Below are positions 1 to 44,400 of a DNA stretch of 44,400 nucleotides, piece by piece. Below the pieces are notes generated by a model, which worked only from the letters and a program-made list of their open reading frames with translations, searched no databases and had not been told where the DNA came from. Source of the stretch: a virus; IMG/VR virus record IMGVR_UViG_3300037502_000804, positions 1 through 44,400 of that record. The stretch is one strand, 5' to 3'. Within the stretch, counting starts at the first letter, position 1. Each line of letters opens with the position of its first letter. Made by a program: the position numbers and the translations under genes.

Positions 1-127
1 GATCATGTCGTTCATATGGTTTTTCATAAAATATTCAAAATCAAATGTTGGAGATCCATATACCGTTCTGTGATTTAAATATTTATAAAATTCATTTCTA
101 TAACAACCAATAGTTAAATCAAAATCT
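1..127. repeat. Terminal direct duplication, copy 1 (127 bp, identical to 44274-44400)
   Basis: Base-by-base comparison by eye is identical. The length equals a common assembler k-mer, so it is most simply the overlap of a circular contig. Confidence 0.9.
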
Positions 128-228
128 TCAGACTCAATATACTTAAATCCAATATCTTCTAAATGTTTTGATAACTCATTTCGTTGATCTTTATTTTTGC
201 ACTCAATATAAAAACTCTCAAATTTCAT
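1..228 (-). CDS. N-terminal 76 codons of the junction-spanning HTH/coiled-coil/TM protein (same gene as 43734-44400)
   Basis: ATG at 228 is preceded by AGGAGA plus 7 nt (caggagaaacaaagATG). There is no stop through base 1. It is in frame with the MKNHMNDM... segment, which is duplicated at the window end. Confidence 0.7.
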   Translation of the reverse strand, partial: MKFESFYIECKNKDQRNELSKHLEDIGFKYIESEDFDLTIGCYRNEFYKYLNHRTVYGSPTFDFEYFMKNHMNDMI

Positions 229-256
229 CTTTGTTTCTCCTGTTAAGATAATCACT

Positions 257-284
257 ATAGTAAACTAATATTTATAATTTGCAA
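257..284 (-). promoter_or_regulatory. Leftward early promoter: -35 TTGCAA (284-279), 16-nt spacer, -10 TACTAT (262-257)
   Basis: Sigma70-like hexamers on the minus strand. The -10 lies in TTTACTATAGTGA, a degenerate copy of the 15-bp motif. Confidence 0.55.
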
Positions 285-307
285 TAGTTAATTTAATAAA
301 CTACAAT
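279..307 (+). promoter_or_regulatory. Rightward early promoter: -35 TTGCAA (279-284), 17-nt spacer, -10 TACAAT (302-307)
   Basis: Near-consensus hexamers sit about 22 nt upstream of AGGAG and ATG 330. The -35 is the same palindromic hexamer used by the leftward promoter. GCAATAGTTA (281-290) resembles the motif core. Confidence 0.6.
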
Positions 308-329: not shown

Positions 330-755
330 ATGAAAGTATTGAAAGTTTTTGAAGGGACGGCAGAAGTGGTTGATTTTGAATTAACTACTCGAAGCTTCTT
401 CTATAAAGGAGAAAAGTTAAAACACGAACCAAATAGCAAAAAAACAGGTTTGCTAGCAAAGCGTAAAGTATCGGATGATAATGAGCCAGAATATTTCTAC
501 AGCTTGAATAGTGACTATGTAAAAGAAAACTACCCCAAATTATTTACGGGTATGCGGAGTGTTGACTGGCCAAAAATTATTGATGAAGTATTTAAATACA
601 ATAATATTTCTCAACATCAGCTTGGGAATATGACTGGGATTTCAACTGCATATATTCAGTGGTTGCGTGAAGGCGTTCGCAAAAACCCAAGTTTTGAAAT
701 GGGAATGGCTATTATAAACCTACACCCAAACAAAAAAGAACTTTTGGAAATTTAA
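330..755 (+). CDS. HTH (XRE/Cro-CI-like) DNA-binding regulator, first rightward early gene
   Basis: AGGAG SD. C-terminal segment ISQHQLGNMTGISTAYIQWLREG has a helix-turn-helix pattern. A terminator follows. Confidence 0.6.
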   Translation: MKVLKVFEGTAEVVDFELTTRSFFYKGEKLKHEPNSKKTGLLAKRKVSDDNEPEYFYSLNSDYVKENYPKLFTGMRSVDWPKIIDEVFKYNNISQHQLGNMTGISTAYIQWLREGVRKNPSFEMGMAIINLHPNKKELLEI

Positions 756-796: not shown

Positions 797-806
797 GCAT
801 ATAATA

Positions 807-821
807 TTTACTATTGAGAAT
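807..821 (+). promoter_or_regulatory. 15-bp motif TTTACTATTGAGAAT, site 1
   Basis: Exact match in the intergenic region. TTTACT-17 nt-TAAGAT (830-835) is a possible promoter for 861. Confidence 0.6.
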
Positions 822-6439: not shown

Positions 6440-6468
6440 TTGCAATTATTCTCGATAGTGTTTACTAT
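6440..6468 (+). promoter_or_regulatory. Sigma70-like promoter TTGCAA-17 nt-TACTAT
   Basis: The -10 is part of the 15-bp motif. The spacer carries an inverted imperfect copy (ATTCTCGATAGTG, 6448-6460). Confidence 0.6.
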
Positions 6469-6475
6469 TGAGAAT
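6461..6475 (+). promoter_or_regulatory. 15-bp motif TTTACTATTGAGAAT, site 2 (paired with inverted copy 6448-6460)
   Basis: Exact match. Confidence 0.7.
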
Positions 6476-9752: not shown

Positions 9753-9781
9753 TTGCATTAATTATAAATATAATTTACTAT
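9753..9781 (+). promoter_or_regulatory. Sigma70-like promoter TTGCAT-17 nt-TACTAT
   Basis: The -10 is embedded in motif site 3. Confidence 0.6.
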
Positions 9782-9788
9782 TGAGAAT
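9774..9788 (+). promoter_or_regulatory. 15-bp motif TTTACTATTGAGAAT, site 3
   Basis: Exact match. Confidence 0.7.
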
Positions 9789-17458: not shown

Positions 17459-17474
17459 TCTAAACTATTTTAGA

Positions 17475-17489
17475 TTTACTATTGAGAAT
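17475..17489 (+). promoter_or_regulatory. 15-bp motif TTTACTATTGAGAAT, site 4
   Basis: Exact match. TTGAGA-17 nt-(TGg)TAAGAT (17502-17510) lies downstream. Confidence 0.65.
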
Positions 17490-17744: not shown

Positions 17745-17745
17745 A

Positions 17746-18095: not shown

Positions 18096-18145
18096 AGGAT
18101 GTAAAATGAAACCAGAACAGTTTATTTATGAGTACAGGGTGAATA

Positions 18146-23280: not shown

Positions 23281-23462
23281 AAGTATCAATAAAATTAAAT
23301 TCAGAAAAACTCTACCAAAAGCTTGAAAAGGCCATTGAAAATTTTAAAGATGAGGAATCAAAACAATTGAATGATGTTGATATTGGCAAATGTTCGGATG
23401 ACTACATTACGGCACTACTTATATTTGATCAGACACTCTTTACGACAAAAGTTATAGATTAA
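23277..23462 (+). CDS. Hypothetical protein
   Basis: ORF with an ATGA overlap. Confidence 0.5.
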   Translation: MKVSIKLNSEKLYQKLEKAIENFKDEESKQLNDVDIGKCSDDYITALLIFDQTLFTTKVID

Positions 23463-23474
23463 TTAAAACACCTA

Positions 23475-23503
23475 TTGCATTCTCAATAGTAAATAAATAT
23501 AAT
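23475..23503 (+). promoter_or_regulatory. Strong sigma70 promoter TTGCAT-17 nt-TATAAT (moron cassette 1)
   Basis: Consensus -10. The spacer contains the 15-bp motif in reverse orientation (23479-23493). The 32-bp core 23474-23505 is identical to 30661-30692. Confidence 0.7.
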
Positions 23504-23540
23504 GATTTTATAACAAGCAATAAAGCTTAAATGTAGGACG

Positions 23541-23759
23541 ATGAAAATGTTTACTCAAGAATTTTTAAACCTAGGCCGTATTGCAGCAGAAGCAGCAATC
23601 GAAACACTAATCGAAAAGGCTAAGAACGAAACTGGTAAGACTGTTAGCTTTACAGAAATGCTTGATTTAACTAGAACAGATGAGTCAGTATCTAAAATGT
23701 ACGAAGAACTTTTACTAAAAGGTATGCAATTTATGACACTTAACGGTGGTGCTCAATAA
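23541..23759 (+). CDS. Moron cassette 1 protein A (72 aa, unknown function)
   Basis: AGGA SD-like sequence. Has its own promoter. Confidence 0.6.
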   Translation: MKMFTQEFLNLGRIAAEAAIETLIEKAKNETGKTVSFTEMLDLTRTDESVSKMYEELLLKGMQFMTLNGGAQ

Positions 23760-23950
23760 TGGGGCCGCATCTTTGTATGGATTGGGTGAAAAAGTACGGC
23801 GGTAGAGAGTTTGATTACTTAACAAATTTAAGCGTAGTTGAACATGTTGCAGATAAAGCTAAGGAAATCGCAATTTCAGAAGAAGAAATAAAGCTTTGTG
23901 ATGCGGCAAAAGAAGCGGCAATAAAGCAAATACAGGAAATCCATAAATAA
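23759..23950 (+). CDS. Moron cassette 1 protein B (63 aa, unknown function)
   Basis: TAATG overlap with protein A. Confidence 0.55.
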   Translation: MGPHLCMDWVKKYGGREFDYLTNLSVVEHVADKAKEIAISEEEIKLCDAAKEAAIKQIQEIHK

Positions 23951-24011
23951 CCCGCCCAGCTCTGGCTTTTCTTATTTCAGTTAGCGTAAATATTTCAAAA
24001 ATTAAGCTATA

Positions 24012-24041
24012 CTAGCCTCATCAAACGATGGGGCTTTTTTA
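24012..24041 (+). terminator. Rho-independent terminator abutting ATG 24042
   Basis: agcctc-atcaaacgat-ggggct stem-loop plus tttttt. Confidence 0.55.
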
Positions 24042-24545
24042 ATGAGTCTAAGATTAAGAAGTATAGCTAACAGCATCACAACGGCAGTAAATAGCAATAC
24101 AGAAGCGCTCTTGAAAGTTGCTGAAGGTTTTACTGTCACACCAGATGGAACGCAAGTTCCGCAATACATTGTACAGCCCAAAGTTGTTCAGGCTCAGTCA
24201 ATGAGCGTGGAGGATTTGAAGCATCTAGGATTTGCTAACCAGCAAGGACAATTCTTATCTATCTATGCTGATGGCATGATTCCAGCGATTAGACGCGCCA
24301 TGCAAAAAGGTACGTCTATTATTGTTATGAATCCATATGGTGAAGCATTCCCTACCGAATGGCAAGTTAAAGCTGTTCTTGAGTCATATTGTGACGAAAT
24401 CGCCGTTGAAGGTGAAAATAACTATAGCGGATGGGTGAAAATTCTAGTTCAAAATACTGGTAAAGAATCACCACATGATGCTCGCTATTTTGGTTTTGCT
24501 GGATCCGATGCTAAGCCATTCACACAAGGAGTATTTGCGCCATGA
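24042..24545 (+). CDS. Virion protein of the head-tail joining/tail completion region
   Basis: ORF. Position upstream of the sheath gene. Confidence 0.55.
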   Translation: MSLRLRSIANSITTAVNSNTEALLKVAEGFTVTPDGTQVPQYIVQPKVVQAQSMSVEDLKHLGFANQQGQFLSIYADGMIPAIRRAMQKGTSIIVMNPYGEAFPTEWQVKAVLESYCDEIAVEGENNYSGWVKILVQNTGKESPHDARYFGFAGSDAKPFTQGVFAP

Positions 24546-25036
24546 GCATGTTAACCGACCTTTACACAGATATGCGCCAGTATCTGCTTAAAACCTTCAA
24601 CCTGCCCGCAAATGATACAACGGTCATTAGAGGCTACAACAATCTAAACCCAATCCCTAAAAACGCCATTATCATGACTTTTATGCAAGGTCGTCATTTG
24701 GACCAGAAGTCTGTCAATTATGATGGCAATAAACAGATCATCTTTAATTCTATGCAAGGCACAATGCAGTTAGATTTTTATGGTGATAACTCAATGGATC
24801 GGGCGCAAGAAGTACAAACTCTGTGGAATAGCCCTTATACTACTGATACGCTAATTAATTGCGTACCATTGGGAAATCCGCGCATACGTGATTTATCTTT
24901 CGTTAATGAGGCTGGAATGTATGAATTGCGCTTTATGATTGAAGCCGACTTGCAATACAATACAAAGTACGAAAAAACAGTTAATATACTGGAAGACGTT
25001 TCTCAAATCGATTTGGAGTCTATCAATGCAGTTTAA
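24542..25036 (+). CDS. Virion protein of the tail completion region
   Basis: ORF with an ATGA overlap. Confidence 0.55.
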   Translation: MSMLTDLYTDMRQYLLKTFNLPANDTTVIRGYNNLNPIPKNAIIMTFMQGRHLDQKSVNYDGNKQIIFNSMQGTMQLDFYGDNSMDRAQEVQTLWNSPYTTDTLINCVPLGNPRIRDLSFVNEAGMYELRFMIEADLQYNTKYEKTVNILEDVSQIDLESINAV

Positions 25037-26489
25037 CTCTATCCCAGCAAGTAACATTGCTGCTGTCTACCCTGCCGTGATTGGTGGCGGTGGCAATCCA
25101 CTAGGATTAAATACAACTTTATTTGTAAATGAAGCTGTATATCCAAACTATGAATATTTTTCCAATACTCTAGTCGGTCAGCACTATGGTCTAGAAAGTG
25201 ATGTTTATAAGTTTGCTACCGTTTACTTTAACGGTTTTAATAACGCAACTACTCGACCAAACTCGCTATTTATTGCAACATACAATTCAGATGAATACCC
25301 TGCCACTATTATCGGCGGTGATATTACTGGAACAAGTATTGCTGACCTTAAATTGATTAACGGCAGCTTAAATATCGTTGTCGATGGCGTGTCAAAGAAC
25401 GTTACTGTTGATTTAAGCACTGCAAACTCATATAGCGATGCGGCTGCTCTAATTGGCACAGCATTAACTTTGACTTGTGTTTACCAATCCACAACTAAAG
25501 GTTTTGTAATTCAATCAGGTACTACGGGCGAAGGCTCAACTATTAGTTTTGCGACTGGTACTGTGGCTGATAAGTTGAAATTAACTCAAGACACTGGTGC
25601 AATCCTAAACAATCATACAACGCAAGATACGCCTGAAACTGCGGCATTGAGCGCAATTCAGTTTAGTAGTAACTTTGTGAACTTCACTTATGCAAATGGC
25701 GTATTTGATGACGATGCTCTAAAAGCTTTTGCTACTTGGATTACTCAACAAAATAGCCGATTCAAGCTATACACATGGGGTCTTGATCCTGTCGCCATCG
25801 GTCAAAGCGGTGCTTCATTTGGCGAATGGGCAAAAGAAAATACTAGCGGTGTTGTTCCGATTTACGGTACTTTCGACAAAGCTGCTTTCTTCTGTGGTGT
25901 TTCTGGTTCAATCAACTATCAAGAAACTAACGGACGCACAACTACTGCTTTCCGCAGTCAAGATGGTTTAGTTCCAGACGTAACAAATGAAGCTGATGCG
26001 GAAACATTAGTTAAGAATGGTTATTCATTCTATGGCGCTTGGGCTACTGCTAATGATCGCTTCCAGTTTGCTGGCAATGGCTCTGTAACTGGTCAGTACA
26101 AATGGATTGATAACTATGACTTCCAAGTGTTCTTGCGTACTCAGTTACAGCTTGCGTATATGAACATGTTCCAAGCTCAAAAGACAATTCCATACAATGA
26201 TCAAGGCATTGCTACAGTTCGAGCATATTCACAAGATCCAATTGATCAAGGTGTTAACTTTGGTGGTATCCGCGCTGGTGTAAACTTGTCTAATGCTCAA
26301 AAGTTCCAAGTCAATCAAGAAGCTGGTTTTGACGCTGCTAGTCAATTGTTTACAAAAGGCTGGGCTTTATCTATTACTTTGCCAGACTCGCAAACTCGCG
26401 TGGCTCGTGAATCATTTATTATCAAGTTATTCTATACGGACGGCTCTAGCATGCAACGTCTAGAAATGACTGCTACTAACGTTCAGTAA
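25026..26489 (+). CDS. Tail sheath protein (DUF3383-type)
   Basis: Size and position before the tube gene. Start trimmed to ATG 25026 (GGAG SD), because track start 24939 overlaps the upstream gene. Confidence 0.7.
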   Translation: MQFNSIPASNIAAVYPAVIGGGGNPLGLNTTLFVNEAVYPNYEYFSNTLVGQHYGLESDVYKFATVYFNGFNNATTRPNSLFIATYNSDEYPATIIGGDITGTSIADLKLINGSLNIVVDGVSKNVTVDLSTANSYSDAAALIGTALTLTCVYQSTTKGFVIQSGTTGEGSTISFATGTVADKLKLTQDTGAILNNHTTQDTPETAALSAIQFSSNFVNFTYANGVFDDDALKAFATWITQQNSRFKLYTWGLDPVAIGQSGASFGEWAKENTSGVVPIYGTFDKAAFFCGVSGSINYQETNGRTTTAFRSQDGLVPDVTNEADAETLVKNGYSFYGAWATANDRFQFAGNGSVTGQYKWIDNYDFQVFLRTQLQLAYMNMFQAQKTIPYNDQGIATVRAYSQDPIDQGVNFGGIRAGVNLSNAQKFQVNQEAGFDAASQLFTKGWALSITLPDSQTRVARESFIIKLFYTDGSSMQRLEMTATNVQ

Positions 26490-26501
26490 GGAGATTAACT
26501 T

Positions 26502-26951
26502 ATGGCAATGGGTCTTAATCCAAATACAATTACATCGGCAAACAGTATTGTACAGTTTCGCTGTGCTGGTTTATATGATGACTGGATTACTATTGAAGGC
26601 GCACAGTCTGACGCATTTGTAACGTTTTCTGATGTTACACTAGCTCAAACTCGTGTCGGCGTGGATGGTAAGCAATCTATGGGCTTCATTCCGCATGAAA
26701 CCCCGATTACTGTATCACTTGAAGCAAACAGCCGATCTGTACCAGTTTTGGAAACCGTCTATAATGACTTTATTCAAAACATGGAAGTACGCCGTTGTGA
26801 ATTCCAGATCAGCTACCCTTCTGTTAAGCGCAAACAAACGCTTACGGGCACAATGGTAGCTAAGTCAGGCGGTACTGGTATTGCACAGCTTTTAAATGGA
26901 CATACATATAACTTTAATATGATGTCTAGCGGTATCGAAGAAACCAACTAA
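26502..26951 (+). CDS. Tail tube protein
   Basis: Position after the sheath gene, size, GGAGA SD. Confidence 0.7.
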   Translation: MAMGLNPNTITSANSIVQFRCAGLYDDWITIEGAQSDAFVTFSDVTLAQTRVGVDGKQSMGFIPHETPITVSLEANSRSVPVLETVYNDFIQNMEVRRCEFQISYPSVKRKQTLTGTMVAKSGGTGIAQLLNGHTYNFNMMSSGIEETN

Positions 26952-26955
26952 CCAT

Positions 26956-26983
26956 AAGGGGAGAAATCCCCTTTCTATTTTTT
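26956..26983 (+). terminator. Rho-independent terminator/attenuator after the tube gene
   Basis: aagggga-GAAA-tcccctt stem-loop plus tctatttttt. Confidence 0.7.
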
Positions 26984-26996
26984 AGAGGCTAAAATC

Positions 26997-27422
26997 ATGT
27001 CTGAAGGCTTAAAGACAAAAACAGTTACTATTGAAGATGGTCGAGATAAAGGCAAAGTTTTCAAAATCACGGAAATGCCAGCGATTCAAGCCGATGAATG
27101 GGCACATCGTCTTTTAGAACAAGCCGCGAATAGTGGGGTTAACTTAAAAGATGTTGATGTATTGAATCTTGATACAAAATCAATGGCTGGAATGATTGAA
27201 ATTGGCGCAGCAGTCTTTACCGTATTGGGTCGCATTCCGCATGAAATCTCACGCGAACTAAAGTTTGATTTGCTTGATCGCTGTGTGCAAATTGTTCCTA
27301 AGTCTGGTGAGCCACGTATTTGTATGTGGGATCAGGAGATTAAAGACTTTAAGAACTTCACTATTCTAGCTGCTCACGCAATTGGGATTCATATTGATTT
27401 TTTAGAACAAGGCGAAGCTTAA
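26997..27422 (+). CDS. Tail assembly chaperone (G-like, 0-frame product)
   Basis: Position between the tube and tape measure genes. Confidence 0.7.
   Translation: MSEGLKTKTVTIEDGRDKGKVFKITEMPAIQADEWAHRLLEQAANSGVNLKDVDVLNLDTKSMAGMIEIGAAVFTVLGRIPHEISRELKFDLLDRCVQIVPKSGEPRICMWDQEIKDFKNFTILAAHAIGIHIDFLEQGEA
27398..27404 (+). other. -1 programmed ribosomal frameshift slippery heptamer T_TTT_TTA
   Basis: In 0 frame the reading is gaT TTT TTA. The -1 frame is open from 27404 into ORF 27452-27664. Confidence 0.6.
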
Positions 27423-27664
27423 TACTTGACTATTCTTATCGCAAGGACGCGATGAGTAATCAGGATCTAAAAGAAGGTGTCTTGGCTAGCCCTCTAAATG
27501 TGTCTGAAACTGTGTATAGGGCGCTATTGACTGGAATGTGTAGTTACCACCAACTAAACACTTGTATCGGTCTTGAGGGTGCGCTAAACATGATTGAGGT
27601 TAAGCAAGTCGCCGACTACAACGAAGCAAAAATCAAATATTTTGCTAGTCAGGAACAGAGGTAA
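27404..27664 (+). CDS. -1 frame extension of the tail chaperone (GT-like fusion, 26997..27404 joined to 27404..27664)
   Basis: Continuous open -1 frame checked codon by codon. The ORF 27452-27664 lies in that frame directly before the tape measure gene. Confidence 0.55.
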   Translation, partial: RTRRSLILDYSYRKDAMSNQDLKEGVLASPLNVSETVYRALLTGMCSYHQLNTCIGLEGALNMIEVKQVADYNEAKIKYFASQEQR

Positions 27665-27666
27665 AA

Positions 27667-29697
27667 ATGGCTGAAAATATTGTTGAGTCGATAATTGTAA
27701 AGCTTGGGTTGGACGGCTCACAATATAATCGTGAAGCCGAAAAAGCCAAGTCAAATAATGACAAGCTGAATAAGTCTGTCAGCGAAACCGATAAGATTGT
27801 TGGCAACGTAACAAAGACTTTAGCGCGGTGGTTTAGTGTAGCTGCCGCCGCTACTGGCATTCTTAAAATGGTTGATCAGGTGCAAAAGCTCAATGATGAG
27901 CTTTATCATCTTGAGCGAAATTTAGGAATGTCAGCAAGCACCATTAAAAATTGGCAAGGCGCTGCTGGTGCAATGGGTGGATCTGCTCAAGGCATGACTG
28001 AATCAATCAAATCCCTAAACATGGGAATGAATGATTTTGTCACAATGGGCGATACCACTCTATTGCCATTCATGAATGCTTTGGGTGTTGGCATGGTCGA
28101 TGCTCAGGGCAAGCTAAGAAAAACCGATGATGTGATGTTAGACCTTGCGGATTCATTCTCCAAAATGGACCGTGAACAAGCATTTTCTATTGCCTCGAAA
28201 ATGGGAATTGACGAGGGTACATTCAATACGCTTGTACAAGGGCGTAAAGAAATGGAGAAGATGCTTGAATATCAATCCAAGATGTACAAATCTTCTGAAG
28301 AAGAATTAAAAGCTTCTCGTCAATTAGCGCAAAACCGAGCATTGCTAGGCCAGCATTGGGAATCACTTAAAACAATGATGGCAAATGCTATCATCCCGTT
28401 ATTTGTGAAACTTAGCGAGGTTGCGCTTGGTATATTCGAATATCTTCAAGAAAACCAACAAGCCGTACAAGCCGTATTCAAAGGCATATCTTTTGTAATT
28501 GGCGCTATTCTCATCCCAATTCTAGCAAAGGCTACAGTTGCAGCTTTGGCGTTTATCGCTCCATTTGCTCCATTTATTTTAGTTGTAGGTGCATTAGGTG
28601 CAGCATTTGGCTTGCTATATGATGACTATAAAACTTGGGCTGAAGGTGGTAAGTCTTTATTCGATTGGGGTGCATTCAGAAAGTATATTGATGACTCAAC
28701 CTTATCGACTGACAACCTTAAAAATGCATTCAAAAACTTGACCAAAGAAATTATGAGTAGCGCAATGCCTACTTTGCAAGGCTATGCTGAGGTAGTTCAA
28801 AAGCTTTTACGTGGTGACTTTAAGGGGGCTGGATCGCAAGCTTGGGATATGGTTAAACAATTTGGCGCTAATGTTGCTGGTGTTGTTGATGATTTAACAG
28901 GTCAAGCACAAGGAACGTTGGCTAATGCTGTTGGTAATCTTGTGAATCCGAGTACACCTCCTGCGACTGGAAATGCTCAAGCGTCTTATAGATCAAAAGC
29001 ATTCACACCAGAAAAAGCTGCTTCTATTGCGCGTGTAGCTAAAAATATTGGTGTTAATCCTAATGATTTGGCTGCTGTTATTTCATTTGAAACTGGTGGA
29101 ACTTTCAGTCCTAGTAAGAGAAACCCGAAATCTTCTGCAACTGGATTAATTCAGTTCATGGCGGGATCTGGCGGGACTAAAGGGAAATACTATGGCATGA
29201 CTCGTGACCAATTTGGTTCACTGTCTTTTGATGAACAAATGAGGTATGTTGAGAAATACTTTATGGATCGCAGTAGTAGATTTAGGGCTGGTAATGAAGC
29301 TAAGAATACTACTGGTGATGTATACGGTGCTGTAACTGGCTACGGATACAAGAAAGGGTCAAGAGAGTATGAGTTAAATAAAGTATGGGATTCAAACAAG
29401 AATGGCATAATCGAAAAAGGTGAAATGGTGCAAAACCCATCATTTAGGGCGCACCAACGACAATATTTTGATATGTCAAACGTAGCTGCTGTTCAGCAAT
29501 CTACTCGTCAAGGCGACTTTATTGACTTAACCAAAGCTAGACAAAACCAAGCAATGGCAAACAAGGCTAATGAAGTCCAAGTAAATGTAGGTGATATTAA
29601 CATCCAAACATCATCTAGTACCGTTACTGGTAATGTCCAAGATGCAATGGGTGCGATTAAAGATCAATTCTATCAATTCCGAAATTCATTTAATTAG
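27667..29697 (+). CDS. Tail tape measure protein with C-terminal lytic-transglycosylase-like segment
   Basis: Length, hydrophobic centre, and position. ISFETGGTF...ATGLIQFM resembles SLT motifs. Confidence 0.75.
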   Translation: MAENIVESIIVKLGLDGSQYNREAEKAKSNNDKLNKSVSETDKIVGNVTKTLARWFSVAAAATGILKMVDQVQKLNDELYHLERNLGMSASTIKNWQGAAGAMGGSAQGMTESIKSLNMGMNDFVTMGDTTLLPFMNALGVGMVDAQGKLRKTDDVMLDLADSFSKMDREQAFSIASKMGIDEGTFNTLVQGRKEMEKMLEYQSKMYKSSEEELKASRQLAQNRALLGQHWESLKTMMANAIIPLFVKLSEVALGIFEYLQENQQAVQAVFKGISFVIGAILIPILAKATVAALAFIAPFAPFILVVGALGAAFGLLYDDYKTWAEGGKSLFDWGAFRKYIDDSTLSTDNLKNAFKNLTKEIMSSAMPTLQGYAEVVQKLLRGDFKGAGSQAWDMVKQFGANVAGVVDDLTGQAQGTLANAVGNLVNPSTPPATGNAQASYRSKAFTPEKAASIARVAKNIGVNPNDLAAVISFETGGTFSPSKRNPKSSATGLIQFMAGSGGTKGKYYGMTRDQFGSLSFDEQMRYVEKYFMDRSSRFRAGNEAKNTTGDVYGAVTGYGYKKGSREYELNKVWDSNKNGIIEKGEMVQNPSFRAHQRQYFDMSNVAAVQQSTRQGDFIDLTKARQNQAMANKANEVQVNVGDINIQTSSSTVTGNVQDAMGAIKDQFYQFRNSFN

Positions 29698-29704
29698 GTG
29701 ATAT

Positions 29705-30301
29705 ATGCTAGCTGGAATGCCTTCTGTACCCAACTTTATACCAGTAAAGGCCTTGACAAATGTCGGGCTTTCATTGGGCGGTGCTGCTCTAATTAACGGT
29801 GTATTTGGCAAAACATGGGGGATTGTCAATCAATTTGGTATACCTATTGTTTTGGCTGACACTGTTGTAAGTATGAATTATGATGCTGGGTCTAGCATTT
29901 CAAAATATCCAGTAGAGCAAGGCTCATTTGCTTCATACAACAAAGTGAATGCTCCGTCTATGGCTACTGTTTCAATGTCAAAAGGCAGTGGTGGTGTGCT
30001 TGAAAGAAGCTTGTTTCTAGGGCAAATTGAAGCTCTATTAAAATCGACTGTAAGCTTTCACATCATTACACCTGAGTACGTTTATCTAAATTATCAGATT
30101 GTTGGAATTAACCATGCCCGCTCTGCTCAAGATGGCGCAACAATGATTACAGTAAATATTGATCTTGAAGAGGTGTTAGAGGCTAAAGTGGAATACTCTA
30201 TTGAAGAGGTAAAAGCGCCTAGCGACTCTAAAACTGTAGATGGTGGTGCTAAGCAATCAACACAGCGAACCAGTGTTTTACGTGGACTTTTTGGAGGATA
30301 A
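29705..30301 (+). CDS. Tail/baseplate protein (position of Mu gp43-like protein)
   Basis: Synteny only. Confidence 0.4.
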   Translation: MLAGMPSVPNFIPVKALTNVGLSLGGAALINGVFGKTWGIVNQFGIPIVLADTVVSMNYDAGSSISKYPVEQGSFASYNKVNAPSMATVSMSKGSGGVLERSLFLGQIEALLKSTVSFHIITPEYVYLNYQIVGINHARSAQDGATMITVNIDLEEVLEAKVEYSIEEVKAPSDSKTVDGGAKQSTQRTSVLRGLFGG

Positions 30302-30302
30302 C

Positions 30303-30581
30303 ATGGCTCAATACGATATTCCTTTGGCACAAGTCCCGAACCAATTTTTTACCACATCATTAAATGGTGTTACTTGGGCAATCACACTAGAAACTCGATT
30401 AAATAACTTATATATCAGTTTATCTAATAATAATGATGGTGATGTATTGTTAAATCGAATATGCCTAAACCGAACTTATTTAGGGCATGGCTTTATCTTT
30501 GTCGACATAGATGGAAATAGTGATCCTGAATACACAGGCTTGGGCACTCGTTATTTACTTATCTGGACAGACGAAGTATGA
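30303..30581 (+). CDS. Small tail/baseplate protein
   Basis: GGAGG SD before ATG 30303. Track start 30240 overlaps the upstream gene. Confidence 0.5.
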   Translation: MAQYDIPLAQVPNQFFTTSLNGVTWAITLETRLNNLYISLSNNNDGDVLLNRICLNRTYLGHGFIFVDIDGNSDPEYTGLGTRYLLIWTDEV

Positions 30582-30661
30582 TTTTATGGTGCCTAGCCTG
30601 ACGAGGTGAAGATGAAGAAAGCCTATTCATCGTGGCACACCAAAATTATTTAAATTAGTTA

Positions 30662-30690
30662 TTGCATTCTCAATAGTAAATAAATATAAT
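30662..30690 (+). promoter_or_regulatory. Strong sigma70 promoter TTGCAT-17 nt-TATAAT (moron cassette 2)
   Basis: Duplicate of the 23475 promoter. Reverse-oriented 15-bp motif at 30666-30680. Confidence 0.7.
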
Positions 30691-30728
30691 GAGTTCATAC
30701 CAAGCAATTAGCTAAAAGGAAATTCAAA

Positions 30729-30878
30729 ATGAAAGACAAAGTTATTAAATTATTAATCAAATGGGGCTATAACGAGGAAACTGTAAAATTAATGGTAGAA
30801 GCTAACTTTGATATTGCTATTAAGTCTTATCCTGATTCAAAACCCTCTTTTATTGCTGATGTGGTCTGCACCCTATGA
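30729..30878 (+). CDS. Moron cassette 2 protein A (49 aa), not in ORF track
   Basis: AAGGA SD. ATGA overlap downstream. Confidence 0.5.
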   Translation: MKDKVIKLLIKWGYNEETVKLMVEANFDIAIKSYPDSKPSFIADVVCTL

Positions 30879-31087
30879 TTATGGTGTGGGTTGATGCTTC
30901 CGAAATAAAGCATGGAGATACCGTTATATGTAAAAAAGGACATATAAAAACTGTTTCCAGAAAGGATATTAGCAACGGTTTTATGGGTTTGTGCATTTTT
31001 GGATACCCATATGGGAATCTTAAAGAAAAAATAGAGAAATGTTTATTTCCTGTTTGGTATCAAGGTGAGGTAATTAGATATGAATGA
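30875..31087 (+). CDS. Moron cassette 2 protein B (70 aa)
   Basis: ORF. Confidence 0.55.
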   Translation: MIMVWVDASEIKHGDTVICKKGHIKTVSRKDISNGFMGLCIFGYPYGNLKEKIEKCLFPVWYQGEVIRYE

Positions 31088-31262
31088 CATTCATTCAAAA
31101 GCGCCTAAAGGGGCTACACACTATTTTAAAAATGAATTCATTGTTTCTTATTTTTTTTATTCCAATGATGTTGAATTGTGGTTTGTTTGGGATAAGCATT
31201 TTGAATACTGGAGTTCAAAAATATTCATGGACCGCATTAAAAATTTAAAAAAATTAAATTAA
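31080..31262 (+). CDS. NAPxGATHY family small protein, paralog 4
   Basis: MNDIHSKAPKGATHY...NLKKLN. Confidence 0.55.
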   Translation: MNDIHSKAPKGATHYFKNEFIVSYFFYSNDVELWFVWDKHFEYWSSKIFMDRIKNLKKLN

Positions 31263-31271
31263 TGCTAAAAT

Positions 31272-31295
31272 AGCCTCCAATACGGAGGCTTTTTA
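31272..31295 (+). terminator. Rho-independent terminator; the 3' arm GGAGG doubles as SD for GTG 31298
   Basis: agcctcc-aatac-ggaggct stem-loop plus ttttatt. Confidence 0.75.
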
Positions 31296-31297
31296 TT

Positions 31298-32813: not shown

Positions 32814-32815
32814 TT

Positions 32816-32962
32816 ATGCAATTACATGAGTTATTCTGGTTCTTTATTGGTTTTGTTGCGGCATTTATTGTTTTGCATTCTGCAAGAAGTATTGCCTACG
32901 CAGTGGCGGCATTTTTCACCTTGTTGATTGTACTAAATATCATGGGGGTGAATATTATATGA
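32816..32962 (+). CDS. Small two-TM membrane protein (48 aa) inside the baseplate module, not in ORF track
   Basis: ATGA overlap with the next gene. Strongly hydrophobic. Confidence 0.45.
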   Translation: MQLHELFWFFIGFVAAFIVLHSARSIAYAVAAFFTLLIVLNIMGVNII

Positions 32963-35948: not shown

Positions 35949-35949
35949 T

Positions 35950-41023: not shown

Positions 41024-41779
41024 TTATCCTCCAAAAACTAAAGTCTTGGCATACTCTCGAGCCATTTCGACTTTTAGTTTAATTAAGTCAATTTTCTTTT
41101 GATCATATTCAACCTTATACGATGAAATACGATCACTAGGATTCATTTCTAAAACATAATCAATATGCAAATATTCATCATCATATCGAGTTAAGCACTC
41201 TTTAGGTGTTGGCATTAGGATAAAATCAAGATAAGCCTCATTAATAATTTTCGGCTCGTAATCGTGATTCTCTCTTAATAGATTCATATATCCCAATTGT
41301 TGCCAATCATAACCAGCATCTAAAGCCTTACTCTCAATATCCTCTTTAAAATACTCCATAGTCCAATATGACCACGGACACTTTGTATCACGTATTGCTG
41401 TGTTAGTAATAATGTCTGGTTCGCCAGTAATCCAGTCATTAGTAAAGCGAATCGTATTTTTTTCAGCACTAATAAACTTCTGTTGCATCAAAAACAAGAT
41501 TGCGTCATCTTCAACTAAATTCCCTTTTCTTGTCTCTTTACTTCCAGTAAACTTGCTTGGAGCCTTATGTCTTAACTGCCTAACTTTTTCCTTGACCAAT
41601 GTTTTAGCAGTAGCCGATAAAGTTATATCCAAAAGATCATCTAAAATCTTTTGTTCTTCATCGGTACGTTTTTTCTTTGCCTTTATTGATTGAACTTCTT
41701 CTGTGAGAAATGCAGAGTCAATAGACTTTGCATTTCCCATTAGTCGATGTAGTTCAGAACATCGAAAAATTAGATTCAT
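41024..41779 (-). CDS. YqaJ/lambda-Exo-like PD-(D/E)XK exonuclease
   Basis: GEPDIITNTAIRDTKCP motif. Adjacent to recT. Confidence 0.6.
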   Translation of the reverse strand: MNLIFRCSELHRLMGNAKSIDSAFLTEEVQSIKAKKKRTDEEQKILDDLLDITLSATAKTLVKEKVRQLRHKAPSKFTGSKETRKGNLVEDDAILFLMQQKFISAEKNTIRFTNDWITGEPDIITNTAIRDTKCPWSYWTMEYFKEDIESKALDAGYDWQQLGYMNLLRENHDYEPKIINEAYLDFILMPTPKECLTRYDDEYLHIDYVLEMNPSDRISSYKVEYDQKKIDLIKLKVEMAREYAKTLVFGG

Positions 41780-42675
41780 AGCGCCTCAACTATTTTCTTT
41801 TGTTCTTCGCTTAATGCGTAAATATCTGGATTTAAAGCATGCTCTTTAGTTAAACTGCCAGCTTCAATAGCCGCCACGAATTGTGGGAATTGATCCTCAG
41901 AAATCAATCGAGCTAATGGCTTTTCACCCTCTTGATCATTATCAACATATGAAGCTTCGCCATCTTCATTAATCACAGCTTGATCAAATTCAATCGCTTG
42001 TTGAAGCTCAACCGACATAGGCGCATATTTTGAGATAAGCAACTTAATAACAGTCTTTTGACACATTGCATCCCAATTCTGATGCCATACAGAATAGCTT
42101 TGCCCTTTCGACTTTGCGGTCTTATACGTCTGACTATACTTGCTTGCATGCTGCTCAAGATCCTCATTAGTCATTGTTAAATGAGCTTCAAACCCTGTCA
42201 CAGTCTCAAGATAAGCCAGATACCCAATAACTTCGCCACTAACCTTTTGTGGGATGAATGAAGTTAAACGAGCTTTTACGCTTTCTTCTGTGTCAGTGTC
42301 ATAAACCGCAATTGAGGCAATCTTTTTAATCTGACCAGAGCGTTGTGCTAATTGCAAGTAGCCTTTCCACCCCATCTGAAATTGTGCTTCTTGATTGCCA
42401 GTTTGTCGATTTTTGAACGGAACAATATAAGCAAAACCAAGATTGTTATTTAGTGGCAAATTAAGCGCACAAGCCGTATAAACAGCGCCTATTACAGATT
42501 CAGGAGTTGATTGCGCCAATAACCCGTTTGAATTAATAACCTGCATTACAGACGTAATATAGCTATCAGATTTACGCCCTATCATTTCTTCAATGCGTTT
42601 CATCACCGATGGATTGCTAAGCGTTTGTTTAATCGCTAATGCATTTTGTTTTTGCTGCTGTGTTAGATTACTCAT
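41776..42675 (-). CDS. recT: RecT-family single-strand annealing protein
   Basis: N-terminal and central RecT-like sequence (LNLPLNNNLGFAYIVPF). Paired with the exonuclease gene. Confidence 0.75.
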   Translation of the reverse strand: MSNLTQQQKQNALAIKQTLSNPSVMKRIEEMIGRKSDSYITSVMQVINSNGLLAQSTPESVIGAVYTACALNLPLNNNLGFAYIVPFKNRQTGNQEAQFQMGWKGYLQLAQRSGQIKKIASIAVYDTDTEESVKARLTSFIPQKVSGEVIGYLAYLETVTGFEAHLTMTNEDLEQHASKYSQTYKTAKSKGQSYSVWHQNWDAMCQKTVIKLLISKYAPMSVELQQAIEFDQAVINEDGEASYVDNDQEGEKPLARLISEDQFPQFVAAIEAGSLTKEHALNPDIYALSEEQKKIVEAL

Positions 42676-43733: not shown

Positions 43734-44400
43734 TCAACCACCGATAGAGCCCTTCAAGAAGAATAGTGCTGTTAGAATCACAATGACAATCAGAATAATG
43801 ATTCGTTCGCGCTTGATCTTTGATTTAAGGCCAGCAACATCTGATTCAGACTGCTTGTATTGATTAACAAAATAATAAAGCCTATCAGCTGTATGCTGAT
43901 TGGTTTCTGTTAAAAGCAAAATTTGATCATCTTTATCAGCCAATGCTTTCACATCCTTATCATGAATTTTCTTGGCCTCATCGTTTTGCTTGATCAAACC
44001 GCTGATTGCCAAGTCTTTACTTTCGATGATCTTTTTAAGATTCGCGATTTCTTTGTCTTTCGATTCAAGTTCATCGGCAAGATTTGAGACAAAAGAATCA
44101 TTAACTTCTGGCTGATTTAGCAATTTATCCAACTCGGCAATAACCTTATTCTGAACCTTCTCGCTTTGCAGCTGGTTAAGCATTTTAGCGATATAGGGGC
44201 GAGACTTACCCATCTTTAAAGATAATTCACTATTGTTTAAACCAAGTTCTTTTTTTGCTTGGTGGATTTTTTTGATCATGTCGTTCATATGGTTTTTCAT
44301 AAAATATTCAAAATCAAATGTTGGAGATCCATATACCGTTCTGTGATTTAAATATTTATAAAATTCATTTCTATAACAACCAATAGTTAAATCAAAATCT
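43734..44400 (-). CDS. Junction-spanning protein (255 aa in total): N-domain, HTH, coiled coil and C-terminal TM anchor (5' end continues at 228-128 of the window)
   Basis: HTH-like LGLNNSELSLKMGKSRPYIAKMLN, a long heptad-rich region, and a terminal IIILIVIVILTALFFL. The frame is open to the window edge and in frame with ATG 228. Confidence 0.65.
   Translation of the reverse strand, partial: DFDLTIGCYRNEFYKYLNHRTVYGSPTFDFEYFMKNHMNDMIKKIHQAKKELGLNNSELSLKMGKSRPYIAKMLNQLQSEKVQNKVIAELDKLLNQPEVNDSFVSNLADELESKDKEIANLKKIIESKDLAISGLIKQNDEAKKIHDKDVKALADKDDQILLLTETNQHTADRLYYFVNQYKQSESDVAGLKSKIKRERIIILIVIVILTALFFLKGSIGG
44274..44400. repeat. Terminal direct duplication, copy 2
   Basis: Identical to 1-127. 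Confidence 0.9.

What the first reader, a model, noticed from the sequence alone, without database searches (positions are those of the whole stretch)
23474..31296. Two moron cassettes in the tail module driven by a duplicated promoter (32-bp identical core)
ATTGCATTCTCAATAGTAAATAAATATAATGA is identical at 23474-23505 and 30661-30692. Similarity continues for about 25 nt more (nTTnATAnCAAGCAAT...GCT).

Each copy is a near-consensus TTGCAT-17-TATAAT promoter with the inverted 15-bp element in its spacer. Each drives 2-3 tiny genes of unknown function: 23541-23950, and 30729-31262. Each cassette ends in a terminator (24012-24041 and 31272-31295).

Both cassettes interrupt otherwise contiguous virion genes. 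This is the classic moron architecture. Here the regulatory module itself has been duplicated or recombined, which implies co-regulated expression independent of late transcription.
Basis: seen in the sequence. Interest (0 to 1): 0.65.

Follow-up and report, generated by a model that had tools for sequence, protein, structure and literature searches.

The report
Swappable promoter-led phage gene cassettes
Two spots in the tail-gene region of this Acinetobacter phage hold small exchangeable gene packages, each led by the same conserved promoter carrying a regulator-binding motif; this is a clear but fairly ordinary example of how phages trade accessory genes.

Summary
The 32-bp sequence is identical at 23474-23505 and 30661-30692, with 0 matches expected by chance. 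It reads TTGCAT-17-TATAAT with a 15-mer in the spacer.

The window is a complete AP22-like (Obolenskvirus) Acinetobacter myophage. Comparison with 16 relatives shows this is not a private duplication. The same promoter heads 17 cassettes in 12 genomes, in front of 10 different cargo sets, at two fixed hot spots (neck|adaptor and baseplate plug|hub). Three cargo sets, including this window's slot-2 trio, sit in the other slot in another phage. Empty slots exist.

One correction: the 'terminators' are slot-specific backbone hairpins. They are present in empty slots and contain the next gene's ribosome-binding site.

The spacer 15-mer is one of seven near-invariant copies at promoters around the genome, with weaker copies in the early control region next to two HTH regulator genes. 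The cassettes therefore probably belong to one operator-controlled early regulon.

Expression, regulator binding and cargo function are all untested. The slot-1 cargo is an ORFan.

Verdict: a real moron / PeSL-like cassette system, a new member of a known kind, of moderate interest.

The parts
23474..23505 (+). Cassette promoter copy 1: -35 TTGCAT 23475-23480, 15-mer motif 23480-23494 in the 17-nt spacer, -10 TATAAT 23498-23503. Predicted transcription start near 23510.
   Evidence: Exact repeat; geometry; conserved at slot 1 in 11 of 15 sampled genomes.
30661..30692 (+). Cassette promoter copy 2: -35 30662-30667, motif 30667-30681, -10 30685-30690. Predicted transcription start near 30697.
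   Evidence: Present at slot 2 in 6 genomes and absent from all 6 empty slot-2 sites.
23506..23546 (+). Leader (5'UTR) of cassette 1, 'type I' (..ATAaCAAGCAATAAAGCTTAAAT.TAGGACGAT). The same leader type fronts other cargos in IME-AB2, Abp95, SR and BUCT628.
   Evidence: Alignment of 17 promoter copies; no significant RNA structure.
30693..30728 (+).
23541..23759 (+). Cargo 1 gene A (72 aa; more likely 70 aa starting at 23547). Helical ORFan.
   Evidence: ORF list. The only hit among 5.8 billion proteins is itself. No phage DNA match. No credible PDB, Pfam or PHROG hit.
23759..23950 (+). Cargo 1 gene B (63 aa), coupled to gene A through a TAATG stop/start overlap. Function unknown.
30729..30878 (+). 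Cargo 2 gene A (49 aa), DUF7421 / phrog_7717. Function unknown.
   Evidence: Pfam PF24196, E=1.5e-12; PHROG.
30875..31087 (+). Cargo 2 gene B (70 aa), phrog_3623. Function unknown.
31080..31262 (+). Cargo 2 gene C (60 aa), phrog_7563/6698. Function unknown.
   Evidence: The whole trio recurs only in BUCT628, and there in slot 1.
24008..24041 (+). Slot-1 backbone hairpin (TATACT + AGCCTCATC-AAAC-GATGGGGCT + T-run) abutting the adaptor ATG at 24042. The adaptor gene's GGGG ribosome-binding site lies in the 3' arm.
   Evidence: The identical hairpin is present in the empty slot 1 of Arbor and Abp9 and behind unrelated cargos.
31266..31297 (+). Slot-2 backbone hairpin (TAAAAT + AGCCTCC-AATAC-GGAGGCT + T-run) abutting the hub GTG at 31298. 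The hub gene's GGAGG ribosome-binding site lies in the 3' arm.
   Evidence: Present in six empty slot-2 sites. phiAC-1 has AACCCTC..GAGGGTT at the same place, which is 3 compensatory pair changes.
806..820 (-). Motif copy at the first rightward operon promoter, 16 nt after terminator 771-789. Phage-specific DNA starts at 847.
6448..6475 (.). Palindromic double motif (ATTCTCGATAGT-gttt-ACTATTGAGAAT) over the -10 of a TTGCAA-17-TACTAT promoter, upstream of the superinfection-immunity gene. The palindrome is perfect in Arbor.
9773..9787 (-). Motif copy over the -10 of TTGCAT-17-TACTAT, after terminator 9708-9734. Heads the small-gene cluster upstream of the terminase genes.
17474..17488 (-). Motif copy after a terminator. 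Heads the hypervariable small-ORF cluster between the head-morphogenesis and prohead-protease genes. Phage-specific DNA starts at 17545.
   Evidence: Turner et al. 2017, PMC5795418.
43208..43222 (+). Motif copy over the -10 of the leftward TTGACA-17-TACTAT promoter (read on the - strand), after a terminator. Heads the RecT/exonuclease operon.
254..307 (+). Early control region with two weaker motif copies (CACTATAGTAAAC at 254-266, TTTGCAATAGTTAAT at 278-292) overlapping the rightward promoter TTGCAA-17-TACAAT (279-307).
   Evidence: Cato has 2x TTTGCAATAGTAAA at the same place.
1..229 (-). 5' part of the gene for the 255-aa HTH regulator (the gene wraps the circular junction and continues at 44273 down to 43734). 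HTH at residues about 73-123, then a coiled coil and a C-terminal transmembrane helix. Best candidate binder of the 15-mer.
   Evidence: Reconstruction. HTH segment near-invariant (2 substitutions) in 4 genomes while the N-terminus and linker are mosaic. phrog_14474 'transcriptional regulator'. Found in 78 phage records, all of this group.
43734..44273 (-). 3' part of the same regulator gene.
330..755 (+). First rightward gene (141 aa) with a C-terminal XRE-type HTH. Alternative candidate regulator.
   Evidence: PDB 8BNY 'immunity repressor', E=6e-5. Its HTH is only 50% identical in Cato, where the control-region sites also differ.
41776..42675 (-). RecT single-strand-annealing recombinase. 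Plausible engine of short-homology cassette exchange.
   Evidence: Pfam RecT, E=2.4e-41.

Best explanation
The two elements are copies of a genus-wide 'cassette promoter': a sigma-70-type promoter (TTGCAT-17-TATAAT) whose spacer holds a 15-bp asymmetric site, TTCTCAATAGTAAAT. The promoter, plus a short leader, heads small accessory-gene packages. These packages sit at two insertion hot spots in the virion-gene block of AP22-like Acinetobacter phages, immediately upstream of two pre-existing backbone hairpin terminators.

**Shown by comparison**
- The slots can be empty or filled with many different cargos.
- The same cargo can occupy either slot in different phages.
- The joints lie at the promoter or leader on the left and at the first bases of the hairpin on the right.

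**Inferred mechanism of spread**
- Homologous or short-homology recombination between co-infecting relatives, probably aided by the phage's own RecT. The conserved promoter/leader and the hairpin foot (TAnAnTAGCCTC) serve as crossover points.

**Inferred mode of expression**
- Host RNA polymerase starts about 7 nt after the TATAAT (near 23510 and 30697) and stops at the backbone hairpin. This gives transcripts of roughly 530 and 600 nt that do not depend on late transcription.

**Inferred regulation**
- The 15-mer is an operator. The same near-invariant sequence overlaps the core of five other promoters heading the early, recombination and small-ORF operons. Weaker copies lie in the divergent early control region.
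- One phage HTH protein therefore probably represses all of these promoters together, including the cassettes. The best candidate is the 255-aa membrane-anchored regulator with the near-invariant HTH; the alternative is the 141-aa XRE-type protein.

Cargo function is unknown. By analogy with cargo in relatives (a DNA methylase, an antirepressor-like protein, membrane proteins), it is probably host-takeover, anti-defence or exclusion functions.
For: - **Repeat is real and non-random:**
- **Genus context:** 80 related Acinetobacter phage records.
- **Promoter distribution:** the element is found in 46 records. In 16 sampled genomes there are 17 copies sharing TA-TTGCAT-TCTC(A/G)ATAGTAAAT-nnA-TATAAT, in front of 10 unrelated cargo sets.
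- **Empty slots lack the promoter but keep the hairpin:**
- **Inter-slot transfer:** window slot 2 matches BUCT628 slot 1 at 92.8% over 671 nt. The 185-aa gene is in slot 2 of Cato and BUCT628 but slot 1 of an IMG/VR contig. The 44-aa gene is in slot 2 of Abp95 but slot 1 of IME-AB2. In each case the hairpin is the type belonging to the resident slot.
- **Mosaic leaders are shared between different cargos:**
- **Motif enrichment:** seven copies of the 15-mer with 0-1 mismatch, all intergenic. The core CRATAGTWAA occurs 10 times against 0.65 expected.
- **Orthologous sites:** the copies sit at the same positions in AP22, Cato and Arbor.
- **Overlap with promoter cores:** the motif overlaps -10, -35 or spacer at different promoters, in both orientations, and forms a palindrome at the sie promoter. 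This is the pattern expected of a repressor operator.
- **Autoregulation-like layout:** weaker copies overlap the rightward early promoter next to two HTH genes.
- **Regulator conservation:** the HTH is near-invariant inside an otherwise mosaic protein and is restricted to this phage group.
- **Negative case:** phiAC-1 lacks the motif and both regulators, yet keeps the slot, a plain TTGCAA-17-TATAAT promoter and the hairpin.
- **Joints of variable DNA:** variable DNA begins right after 4 of the 7 motif promoters.
- **Recombinase:** RecT is present.
- **Hairpins:** stable and followed by U-runs.
Against: - There are no expression data of any kind for this genus. Promoter activity, start sites, timing and termination efficiency are all predictions.
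- The -35 matches TTGACA at only 3 of 6 positions, and the consensus scan did not flag these promoters.
- Not every slot occupant uses this promoter. KEN_01 and IME512 slot 1 use a different extended -10 promoter. IMG/VR and SR slot 2 cargo have no promoter at all. So the hot spot exists independently of the promoter.
- Complete invariance of 15 bp across seven paralogous sites is stricter than usual for operators.
- The two cassette copies have the opposite orientation, relative to transcription, from the other five copies, and this is unexplained.
- No binding evidence exists. The link between regulator and motif rests on co-occurrence, conservation and a single negative genome.
- Late transcripts must somehow pass, or restart at, the same hairpins. 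How this happens is unresolved.
Confidence: 0.6

Rival explanations
1. The shared sequence is simply the phage's preferred strong promoter design and a recombination joint (PeSL-like). The 15-mer is not an operator for a dedicated regulator. It would be conserved because it optimises RNA polymerase binding or spacer geometry, or because recombination keeps homogenising it.
For: - Variable DNA starts directly after 4 of the 7 motif promoters.
- Four of the other five motif promoters sit just downstream of terminator hairpins, like the PeSL composites described in PMC2839356.
- 15 of 15 invariance is atypical for operators.
Against: - The motif occupies different registers (-10, -35, spacer) and both orientations relative to the promoter hexamers. 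That does not fit a fixed RNA-polymerase contact.
- It forms a perfect palindrome at one site.
- Degenerate copies sit in the divergent control region beside HTH genes.
- Strong motif-less promoters exist in the same genome, for example 3544 TTGACA-16-TAAAAT.
Confidence: 0.18
2. The 15-mer is an activator box (MotA-box-like), and the seven promoters, including the cassettes, are middle-class promoters switched on by an immediate-early phage protein rather than repressed.
For: - The two immediate-early genes flanking the control region are each followed by a terminator and then a motif promoter. That is a cascade-like layout.
- Sites 806 and 17474 lack a good -35/-10 pair in the standard register.
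Against: - Activators need fixed geometry. Here the motif lies over the -10 (three sites), the -35 (two sites) or the spacer (two sites, inverted).
- The cassette promoters already have TTG-17-TATAAT and should be active without help.
Confidence: 0.12
3. The promoter-like sequences are not used. The cassettes are transcribed only as passengers of the late virion operon.
For: - Some slot-2 cargos (IMG/VR contig, SR) have no promoter and must be expressed that way.
- There are no transcript data.
Against: - 29 bp are conserved, with only about 3 variable positions, across 17 copies in front of unrelated cargo.
- The sequence is always absent from empty slots.
- It shares its motif with the promoters of the early operons.
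Confidence: 0.06
4. The cassettes move by a site-specific mechanism (integron-like attC recombination, a homing endonuclease, or transposition), with the repeat as the recognition site.
For: - Two fixed insertion points are reused by many cargos.
- The boundary sequences are conserved.
Against: - No integrase, transposase or cassette-linked endonuclease is evident in the window or in the annotated relatives.
- The joints are mosaic: upstream of the -35, after the -10 and after the leader. This is as expected from homologous exchange, not from one fixed cut site.
- The motif also sits at five promoters that are not simple insertion sites.
Confidence: 0.04

Closest known systems
Morons of lambdoid and other tailed phages (Juhala et al. 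2000; Hendrix et al. 2000; from my own knowledge)
   Same: - Extra genes inserted between two virion genes that are adjacent in relatives.
- They are led by their own sigma-70-type promoter and followed by a terminator.
- Cargo is accessory and mostly of unknown function.
- One cargo has a lower G+C content (30.7% against 37.8%).
   Different: - The terminator is not brought in by the insert. It pre-exists in the empty site and overlaps the ribosome-binding site of the next virion gene.
- The promoter is one standard module reused for many cargos, and it carries a motif shared with the phage's own early promoters.
- The host phage is regarded as virulent, so 'expression from a repressed prophage' does not apply.
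PeSLs, promoter-early stem-loop cassettes of T4-type phages (Arbiol et al. 2010, PMC2839356; Comeau et al. 2014, PMC4122927)
   Same: - Repeated, highly conserved sigma-70-like promoters sit immediately upstream of ORFans in variable regions, including a few inside virion modules.
- They are associated with stem-loop terminators that stop spill-over into late genes.
- Cargo differences between close relatives are bounded by the repeats, which implies recombination at the repeats (for the definition; for this phage).
   Different: - This is a different phage lineage (a 44-kb AP22-like myophage).
- At the two cassette promoters the stem-loop is not embedded in or next to the promoter; it lies about 0.5 kb away at the far end of the cargo.
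- There are only 7 repeats per genome, against about 50.
- The repeat contains a 15-bp asymmetric operator-like site.
- Mini-circles have not been examined.
Dispersed asymmetric operators of the phage P1 C1 repressor, and the 'stoperators' of mycobacteriophage L5 gp71 (from my own knowledge)
   Same: A single, well-conserved, asymmetric site of 13-17 bp is scattered round the phage genome at many promoters or intergenic gaps. It occurs in either orientation, is sometimes paired into a palindrome, and is also present at the regulator's own control region.
   Different: - No homology of either candidate regulator to P1 C1 or L5 gp71 was demonstrated. Only sub-threshold HTH_3 hits and an XRE-type PDB match were found.
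- The phage has no integrase and no prophage relatives were found, so this would be a lytic-cycle timing circuit, not an immunity system.
- Binding is untested.

Membership tests
Moron | Inserted between two genes that are adjacent in related phages | tested here: met
   The empty slot 1 is 42 nt (Arbor, Abp9). The empty slot 2 is 108 nt (AP22, Arbor, KEN_01, IME512, Scipio, Abp9).
Moron | Own promoter upstream of the inserted gene(s) | tested here: met
   TTGCAT-17-TATAAT is present in occupied slots and absent from empty ones. This is sequence evidence only; activity is not testable with these tools.
Moron | Own terminator downstream, brought in with the insert | tested here: not met
   A hairpin terminator is present, but it belongs to the backbone. 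It is identical in empty slots, specific to each slot whatever the cargo, and conserved by covariation in phiAC-1.
Moron | Nucleotide composition differs from the surrounding genes | tested here: inconclusive
   Cargo 2 has 30.7% GC (2.8th percentile of same-size windows). Cargo 1 has 36.1% (30th percentile). The genome has 37.8%.
Moron | Expressed independently of the surrounding late operon (classically from the prophage) | not testable with these tools
   No transcriptome for this genus was found. No prophage relatives were found.
PeSL (promoter-early stem-loop) cassette | Repeated sigma-70-like early promoter motif with an AT-rich upstream region | tested here: met
   There are 2 copies in the window and 17 in 12 genomes, with AT-rich flanks, plus 5 further motif-bearing promoters in the window.
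PeSL (promoter-early stem-loop) cassette | Stable stem-loop within or overlapping the promoter element | tested here: not met
   At the two cassette promoters there is no stem-loop in or next to the promoter, and the leaders do not fold significantly. The hairpin lies at the 3' end of the cargo. Four of the other five motif promoters do follow a terminator hairpin within about 10-45 nt.
PeSL (promoter-early stem-loop) cassette | Located immediately upstream of ORFans or variable genes | tested here: met
   DNA absent from AP22, Cato and Arbor starts at 847, 17545, 23512 and 30691, directly after motif promoters. Cargo 1 is an ORFan.
PeSL (promoter-early stem-loop) cassette | Differences between relatives are bounded by the repeats (modular shuffling) | tested here: met
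   The same cargo occurs in different slots, and different cargos occur behind the same promoter and leader.
PeSL (promoter-early stem-loop) cassette | Formation of excised mini-circles | not testable with these tools
   This needs PCR or sequencing of infected-cell or virion DNA.
Dispersed-operator repressor regulon (P1 C1-like) | Asymmetric conserved site at many dispersed promoters, in either orientation, and at the regulator's own promoter | tested here: met
   There are seven 15-mers with 0-1 mismatch plus 2-3 weaker copies in the control region. The core is enriched 10 against 0.65 expected.
Dispersed-operator repressor regulon (P1 C1-like) | Regulator homologous to P1 C1 (or to L5 gp71) | not tested
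   No direct comparison with those proteins was made. Pfam gives only sub-threshold HTH_3/ParB-HTH hits for the 255-aa protein. The 141-aa protein matches an XRE-type repressor, 8BNY.
Dispersed-operator repressor regulon (P1 C1-like) | Demonstrated protein binding and repression | not testable with these tools
   This needs EMSA or footprinting and reporter assays.
Integron-type gene cassette | Site-specific recombinase plus attC-like recombination sites | tested here: not met
   No integrase or recombinase other than RecT was recognised in the window or in annotated relatives. The joints are mosaic rather than at one fixed site.

The most novel reading that the evidence does not exclude
AP22-like virulent phages run nearly all of their non-immediate-early transcription units, and a portable gene-capture platform, through one near-invariant asymmetric operator. 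This operator would be read by a membrane-anchored HTH protein. The operator-bearing promoter plus leader, together with two fixed terminator/RBS hairpins in the tail-gene block, would act as standard 'docking sockets'. RecT-driven short-homology recombination would plug ORFan (likely anti-defence) genes into these sockets, so any newly captured gene is automatically wired into the early regulon. That would amount to a P1-C1-style dispersed-operator circuit fused with a PeSL-style shuffling system in a small lytic myophage.
Probability: 0.25. Interest if true: 0.6.

Novelty: new member of a known kind. Interest (0 to 1): 0.4.

Why it matters
AP22-like phages are among the most commonly isolated therapeutic candidates against multidrug-resistant Acinetobacter baumannii.

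- **Finding accessory genes.** Two fixed slots, marked by an easily searched 29-bp promoter, hold the strain-specific accessory genes. This gives a simple way to find and compare the genes most likely to influence host range, defence evasion and superinfection exclusion. These slots are also natural, probably tolerated insertion sites for engineering payloads.
- **A starting point for transcription studies.** The seven-site motif offers a concrete, testable entry into the unstudied transcriptional programme of this genus.
- **General point.** Conceptually this extends promoter-mediated modular shuffling, described for T4-type phages, to a small unrelated myophage. It does not overturn anything.

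Tried and rejected
- **Replication-polarity reading of motif orientation.** The sites at 806-17474 are all on the - strand and those at 23480-43208 on the + strand. Cumulative GC skew simply follows transcription (minimum at 304, maximum at 39523) with no switch near 20 kb. A contiguous two-block pattern is expected by chance in about a third of cases. Rejected.
- **Antisense promoter using the motif's TACTAT on the minus strand at the cassette sites.** The spacing to any -35-like hexamer is wrong (23 nt to TTGCTT). Only slot 2 has a scanner hit, TTGAGA-17-AATAAT. Not pursued.
- **TAnAnT hexamer before each hairpin as a late promoter.** It occurs only at the two slots and is not enriched as a pattern. 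It is more simply the A-tract of a bidirectional terminator, since it pairs with the U-run. Left as a note.
- **Phage Ab69 as a natural experiment for a divergent regulator HTH.** The record is a frameshift-ridden assembly with 159 fragmented CDSs. Unusable.
- **Search for prophage or bacterial relatives of the regulator.** None were found in 185,579 species genomes.
- **Search for the 20-mer promoter in bacterial genomes.** Three hits (Haemophilus twice, Formosa once) against about 2 expected by chance, and none in Acinetobacter.
- **IMG/VR scan for the promoter.** Only one contig matched.
- **Function of the five cargo proteins.** Pfam, PHROGs and PDB sequence screens gave nothing credible. 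The alphaRep/HEAT hits for gene A are summed repeat noise with no individually significant stretch.
- **Structure prediction.** Not run, because the slot-1 proteins have no homologues to build an alignment.
- **Rfam.** No family matched in the window.
- **Literature.** No description of this motif or promoter, and no transcriptome for the genus, was found.

Full report
**What is in the sequence**

The 32-mer ATTGCATTCTCAATAGTAAATAAATATAATGA is present exactly twice, at 23474-23505 and 30661-30692 on the + strand. No match was seen in 100 shuffles, even with three mismatches allowed. The similarity extends to 64 nt at 88% and to 74 nt at 85% by blastn.

Each copy reads TTGCAT, then a 17-nt spacer, then TATAAT. 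The -10 is perfect. The -35 shares only TTG with TTGACA, which is why the consensus scan did not list these promoters.

The ORFs are as described. The first one more likely starts at 23547. Hairpins followed by T-runs lie at 24014-24041 and 31272-31297. They fold at -13.9 and -13.8 kcal/mol, with z about -3.6.

The window carries a 127-nt terminal overlap. It is therefore a circularly assembled genome of 44,273 bp with 37.8% GC.

**What the genome is**

The region matches 80 GenBank phage records, all Acinetobacter phages of the AP22 group (Obolenskvirus), at 80-95% identity.

Slot 1 lies between the 61-aa neck gene (23277-23462) and the head-tail adaptor gene (24042-). Slot 2 lies between a Pam3_gp18-like baseplate plug gene (30240-30581) and the baseplate hub gene (31298-).

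**Comparative anatomy of the two slots**

I extracted both slots from the window, 14 GenBank relatives and one IMG/VR contig.

Slot 1, scored in 15 genomes:

| State | Genomes |
|---|---|
| Motif-bearing promoter | 11 |
| A different extended -10 promoter in front of an antirepressor-like gene | 2 (KEN_01, IME512) |
| Empty (42 nt) | 2 (Arbor, Abp9) |

Slot 2, scored in 14 genomes:

| State | Genomes |
|---|---|
| Motif-bearing promoter | 6 |
| Cargo with no promoter | 2 |
| Empty (108 nt) | 6 |

The 17 promoter copies share TA-TTGCAT-TCTC(A/G)ATAGTAAAT-nnA-TATAAT, with only about three variable positions. They precede 10 unrelated cargo sets:

- a DNA N6/N4 methylase (Pfam E=2e-49);
- a 185-aa protein with faint sliding-clamp-domain similarity;
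- membrane proteins;
- several ORFans.

The 32-bp identity in this window is therefore a stack of constrained elements conserved across the genus. It is not a sign of recent duplication.

**Cassettes move between slots**

- The window's entire slot-2 cassette (30645-31305) is 92.8% identical over 671 nt to the slot-1 cassette of BUCT628. That is the only other phage record that contains this cargo.
- The 185-aa gene is in slot 2 of Cato and BUCT628 but in slot 1 of the IMG/VR contig.
- A 44-aa gene is in slot 2 of Abp95 but in slot 1 of IME-AB2.

In each case the hairpin that follows is the one that belongs to the resident slot. The right-hand joint therefore falls at about TAnAnTAGCCTC, and the left-hand joint just upstream of the -35.

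Leaders are mosaic too. One leader type (..CAAGCAAT.A.GCT..) fronts four different cargos, including both cassettes of this window.

The window's slot-1 cargo has no DNA match in 50,697 phage records. Its first gene has no relative among 5.8 billion proteins other than itself.

**The terminators belong to the backbone**

Empty slots retain the hairpins:

- slot 1: AACATGTTGTATAAT-AGCCTCATCAAACGATGGGGCT-TTTTT-ATG;
- slot 2..GGTTATACT-AGCCTCCAATACGGAGGCT-TTTTATT-GTG.

The Shine-Dalgarno sequence of the adaptor gene (GGGG) and of the hub gene (GGAGG) lies in the 3' arm of the respective hairpin.

In the distant relative phiAC-1, the slot-2 hairpin is AACCCTC..GAGGGTT. That is three compensatory pair changes, still followed by a T-run and the start codon.

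The cassettes are thus 'promoter + leader + ORFs' dropped just upstream of pre-existing terminators.

**The 15-mer is a genome-wide element**

TTCTCAATAGTAAAT occurs seven times with 0-1 mismatch: at 806, 6460, 9773 and 17474 on the - strand, and at 23480, 30667 and 43208 on the + strand. All seven copies are intergenic. The core CRATAGTWAA occurs 10 times against 0.65 expected.

Relative to local transcription, five copies read ATTTACTATTGAGAA:

- Three of them (6460, 9773, 43208) cover the -10 of TTG(C/A)(A/C)(A/T)-17-TACTAT promoters.
- Two (806, 17474) cover a -35 region.
- Four of the five follow a terminator.

The two cassette copies are inverted and sit in the promoter spacer.

At the superinfection-immunity promoter the site is a palindrome of 12-mers, which is perfect in Arbor. 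Weaker copies overlap the rightward early promoter TTGCAA-17-TACAAT in the divergent control region.

The copies sit at orthologous positions in AP22 (6 copies), Cato (7) and Arbor.

A site that overlaps core promoter elements in variable register and orientation, and that recurs at the regulator's own control region, is what a repressor operator looks like. I infer that; it is not shown.

**Candidate regulators**

The leftward gene that wraps the circular junction encodes a 255-aa protein. It has a central HTH, a coiled coil and a C-terminal transmembrane helix.

- Its HTH segment is almost unchanged (two substitutions) in four genomes, while its N-terminus and linker are mosaic. This parallels the invariance of the 15-mer.
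- The HTH occurs in 78 phage records, all from this group.
- It occurs in no bacterial species genome.

The first rightward gene encodes a 141-aa protein with an XRE-type HTH (PDB 8BNY, E=6e-5). This HTH is only 50% identical in Cato, where the control-region sites also differ.

phiAC-1 lacks both proteins and the motif. Even so, its slot 2 has a plain TTGCAA-17-TATAAT promoter, one ORF and the hairpin.

This is consistent with the regulon idea. It is thin evidence: one negative genome, and no usable natural variant, because Ab69 proved to be a frameshifted assembly.

**How the cassettes probably spread**

- Variable DNA begins immediately after four of the seven motif promoters, at 847, 17545, 23512 and 30691.
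- The phage encodes RecT.
- No integrase or transposase is evident.

The pattern matches homologous or short-homology exchange at conserved regulatory sequences. This was described for the PeSL promoter/stem-loop cassettes of T4-type phages (PMC2839356; PMC4122927). It also matches the classical moron concept (from my own knowledge).

The fit to the PeSL definition is incomplete, because no stem-loop is embedded in the cassette promoters. The fit to the strict moron definition is also incomplete, because the terminator is not part of the insert.

**What remains unknown**

- Promoter activity, timing, termination efficiency and regulator binding.
- How late transcripts cross the hairpins.
- What the five small proteins do.

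I found no paper describing this motif or promoter, and no transcriptome for the genus.

**Verdict**

- It needs three corrections: the terminators belong to the backbone; the identity reflects genus-wide constraint, not a recent duplication; and the relevant unit is a seven-site regulon.
- This is a new member of a known kind, and the interest is moderate.

Noticed in passing
window 1-127 and 44274-44400: There is an exact 127-nt terminal overlap, so the window is a circularly assembled complete genome of 44,273 bp. The regulator gene on the minus strand wraps this junction (start codon at 229, stop at 43734).
   Followed up: yes
window 24008-24041 and 31266-31297; L018 (phiAC-1) 23526-23563 and 30350-30381: The intrinsic-terminator-like hairpins inside the late virion operon abut the start codons of the adaptor and hub genes and hold their Shine-Dalgarno sequences in the 3' arm. 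They are conserved by compensatory changes in phiAC-1. Each is preceded by a TAnAnT hexamer (often TGnTAnAnT) whatever the cargo. It is unclear how late transcription and translation get past them, and whether the hexamer is an A-tract or a -10 element starting transcripts inside the stem.
   Followed up: partly
window 43734-44273 + 1-229 (- strand): The 'CI-position' regulator is not CI-like. It has an N-terminal variable domain, a near-invariant HTH (2 substitutions across four genomes), a coiled coil and a C-terminal transmembrane helix (IIILIVIVILTALFFL). This would be a membrane-anchored DNA-binding protein in a lytic phage.
   Followed up: partly
window 6448-6475; L005 (Arbor) 41162-41187: The motif forms a 12+4+12 palindrome at the promoter of the superinfection-immunity gene, imperfect here and perfect in Arbor. 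This suggests the 12-mer ATTCTCAATAGT is a half-site that can be bound singly or as a pair.
   Followed up: partly
window 108-117: A third copy of the control-region core CAATAGTTAA lies inside the 5' coding part of the regulator gene, about 170 nt from the copy at 282. It could be a distal operator or chance.
   Followed up: no
window 30673-30645 (- strand): The scanner reports a minus-strand promoter-like site, TTGAGA-17-AATAAT (10 of 12), that uses the motif as its -35 and points antisense into the baseplate plug gene. The equivalent at slot 1 is weaker.
   Followed up: no
window 3520-3571 and 2965-3072: The early region also has terminator-then-promoter composites without the motif, for example terminator 3520-3536 followed by TTGACA-16-TAAAAT (11 of 12). 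So not all operon promoters belong to the motif set.
   Followed up: no
window 12027-12081 and 18629-18683: A 55-nt direct repeat (73% identity) spans the starts of two small ORFs. Each of these ORFs is the last gene of a small-ORF cluster, just upstream of the terminase small subunit and the prohead protease respectively. They are possibly paralogous genes.
   Followed up: no
window 847-1057, 17545-18546, 10144-12069, 16274-16961, 36323-38286: These are further segments absent from AP22, Cato and Arbor. Two of them start directly after motif promoters. 36323-38286 is the tailspike/receptor-binding region, as expected.
   Followed up: partly
L008/L009 (KEN_01, IME512) slot 1; L006 and L014 slot 2: Some slot occupants do not use the motif promoter. 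An antirepressor-like 224-aa gene has its own TGATATAAT extended -10 promoter. Two slot-2 cargos (65 aa and 102 aa) have only a GGAGG ribosome-binding site and must ride on late transcripts.
   Followed up: partly
L022 (OR045356.1, phage Ab69): This public record is annotated with 159 fragmented CDSs across a 45-kb genome. That points to many frameshift errors in the assembly, so it should not be used for comparative inference.
   Followed up: yes
AP22, IMG/VR, Cato, BUCT628 and QH4 cassette leaders: A second leader type carries a motif-like TCTCAATAAT about 27 nt downstream of the spacer motif, around +5 to +14, in front of three different cargos. This may be a second, weaker binding site.
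   Followed up: no
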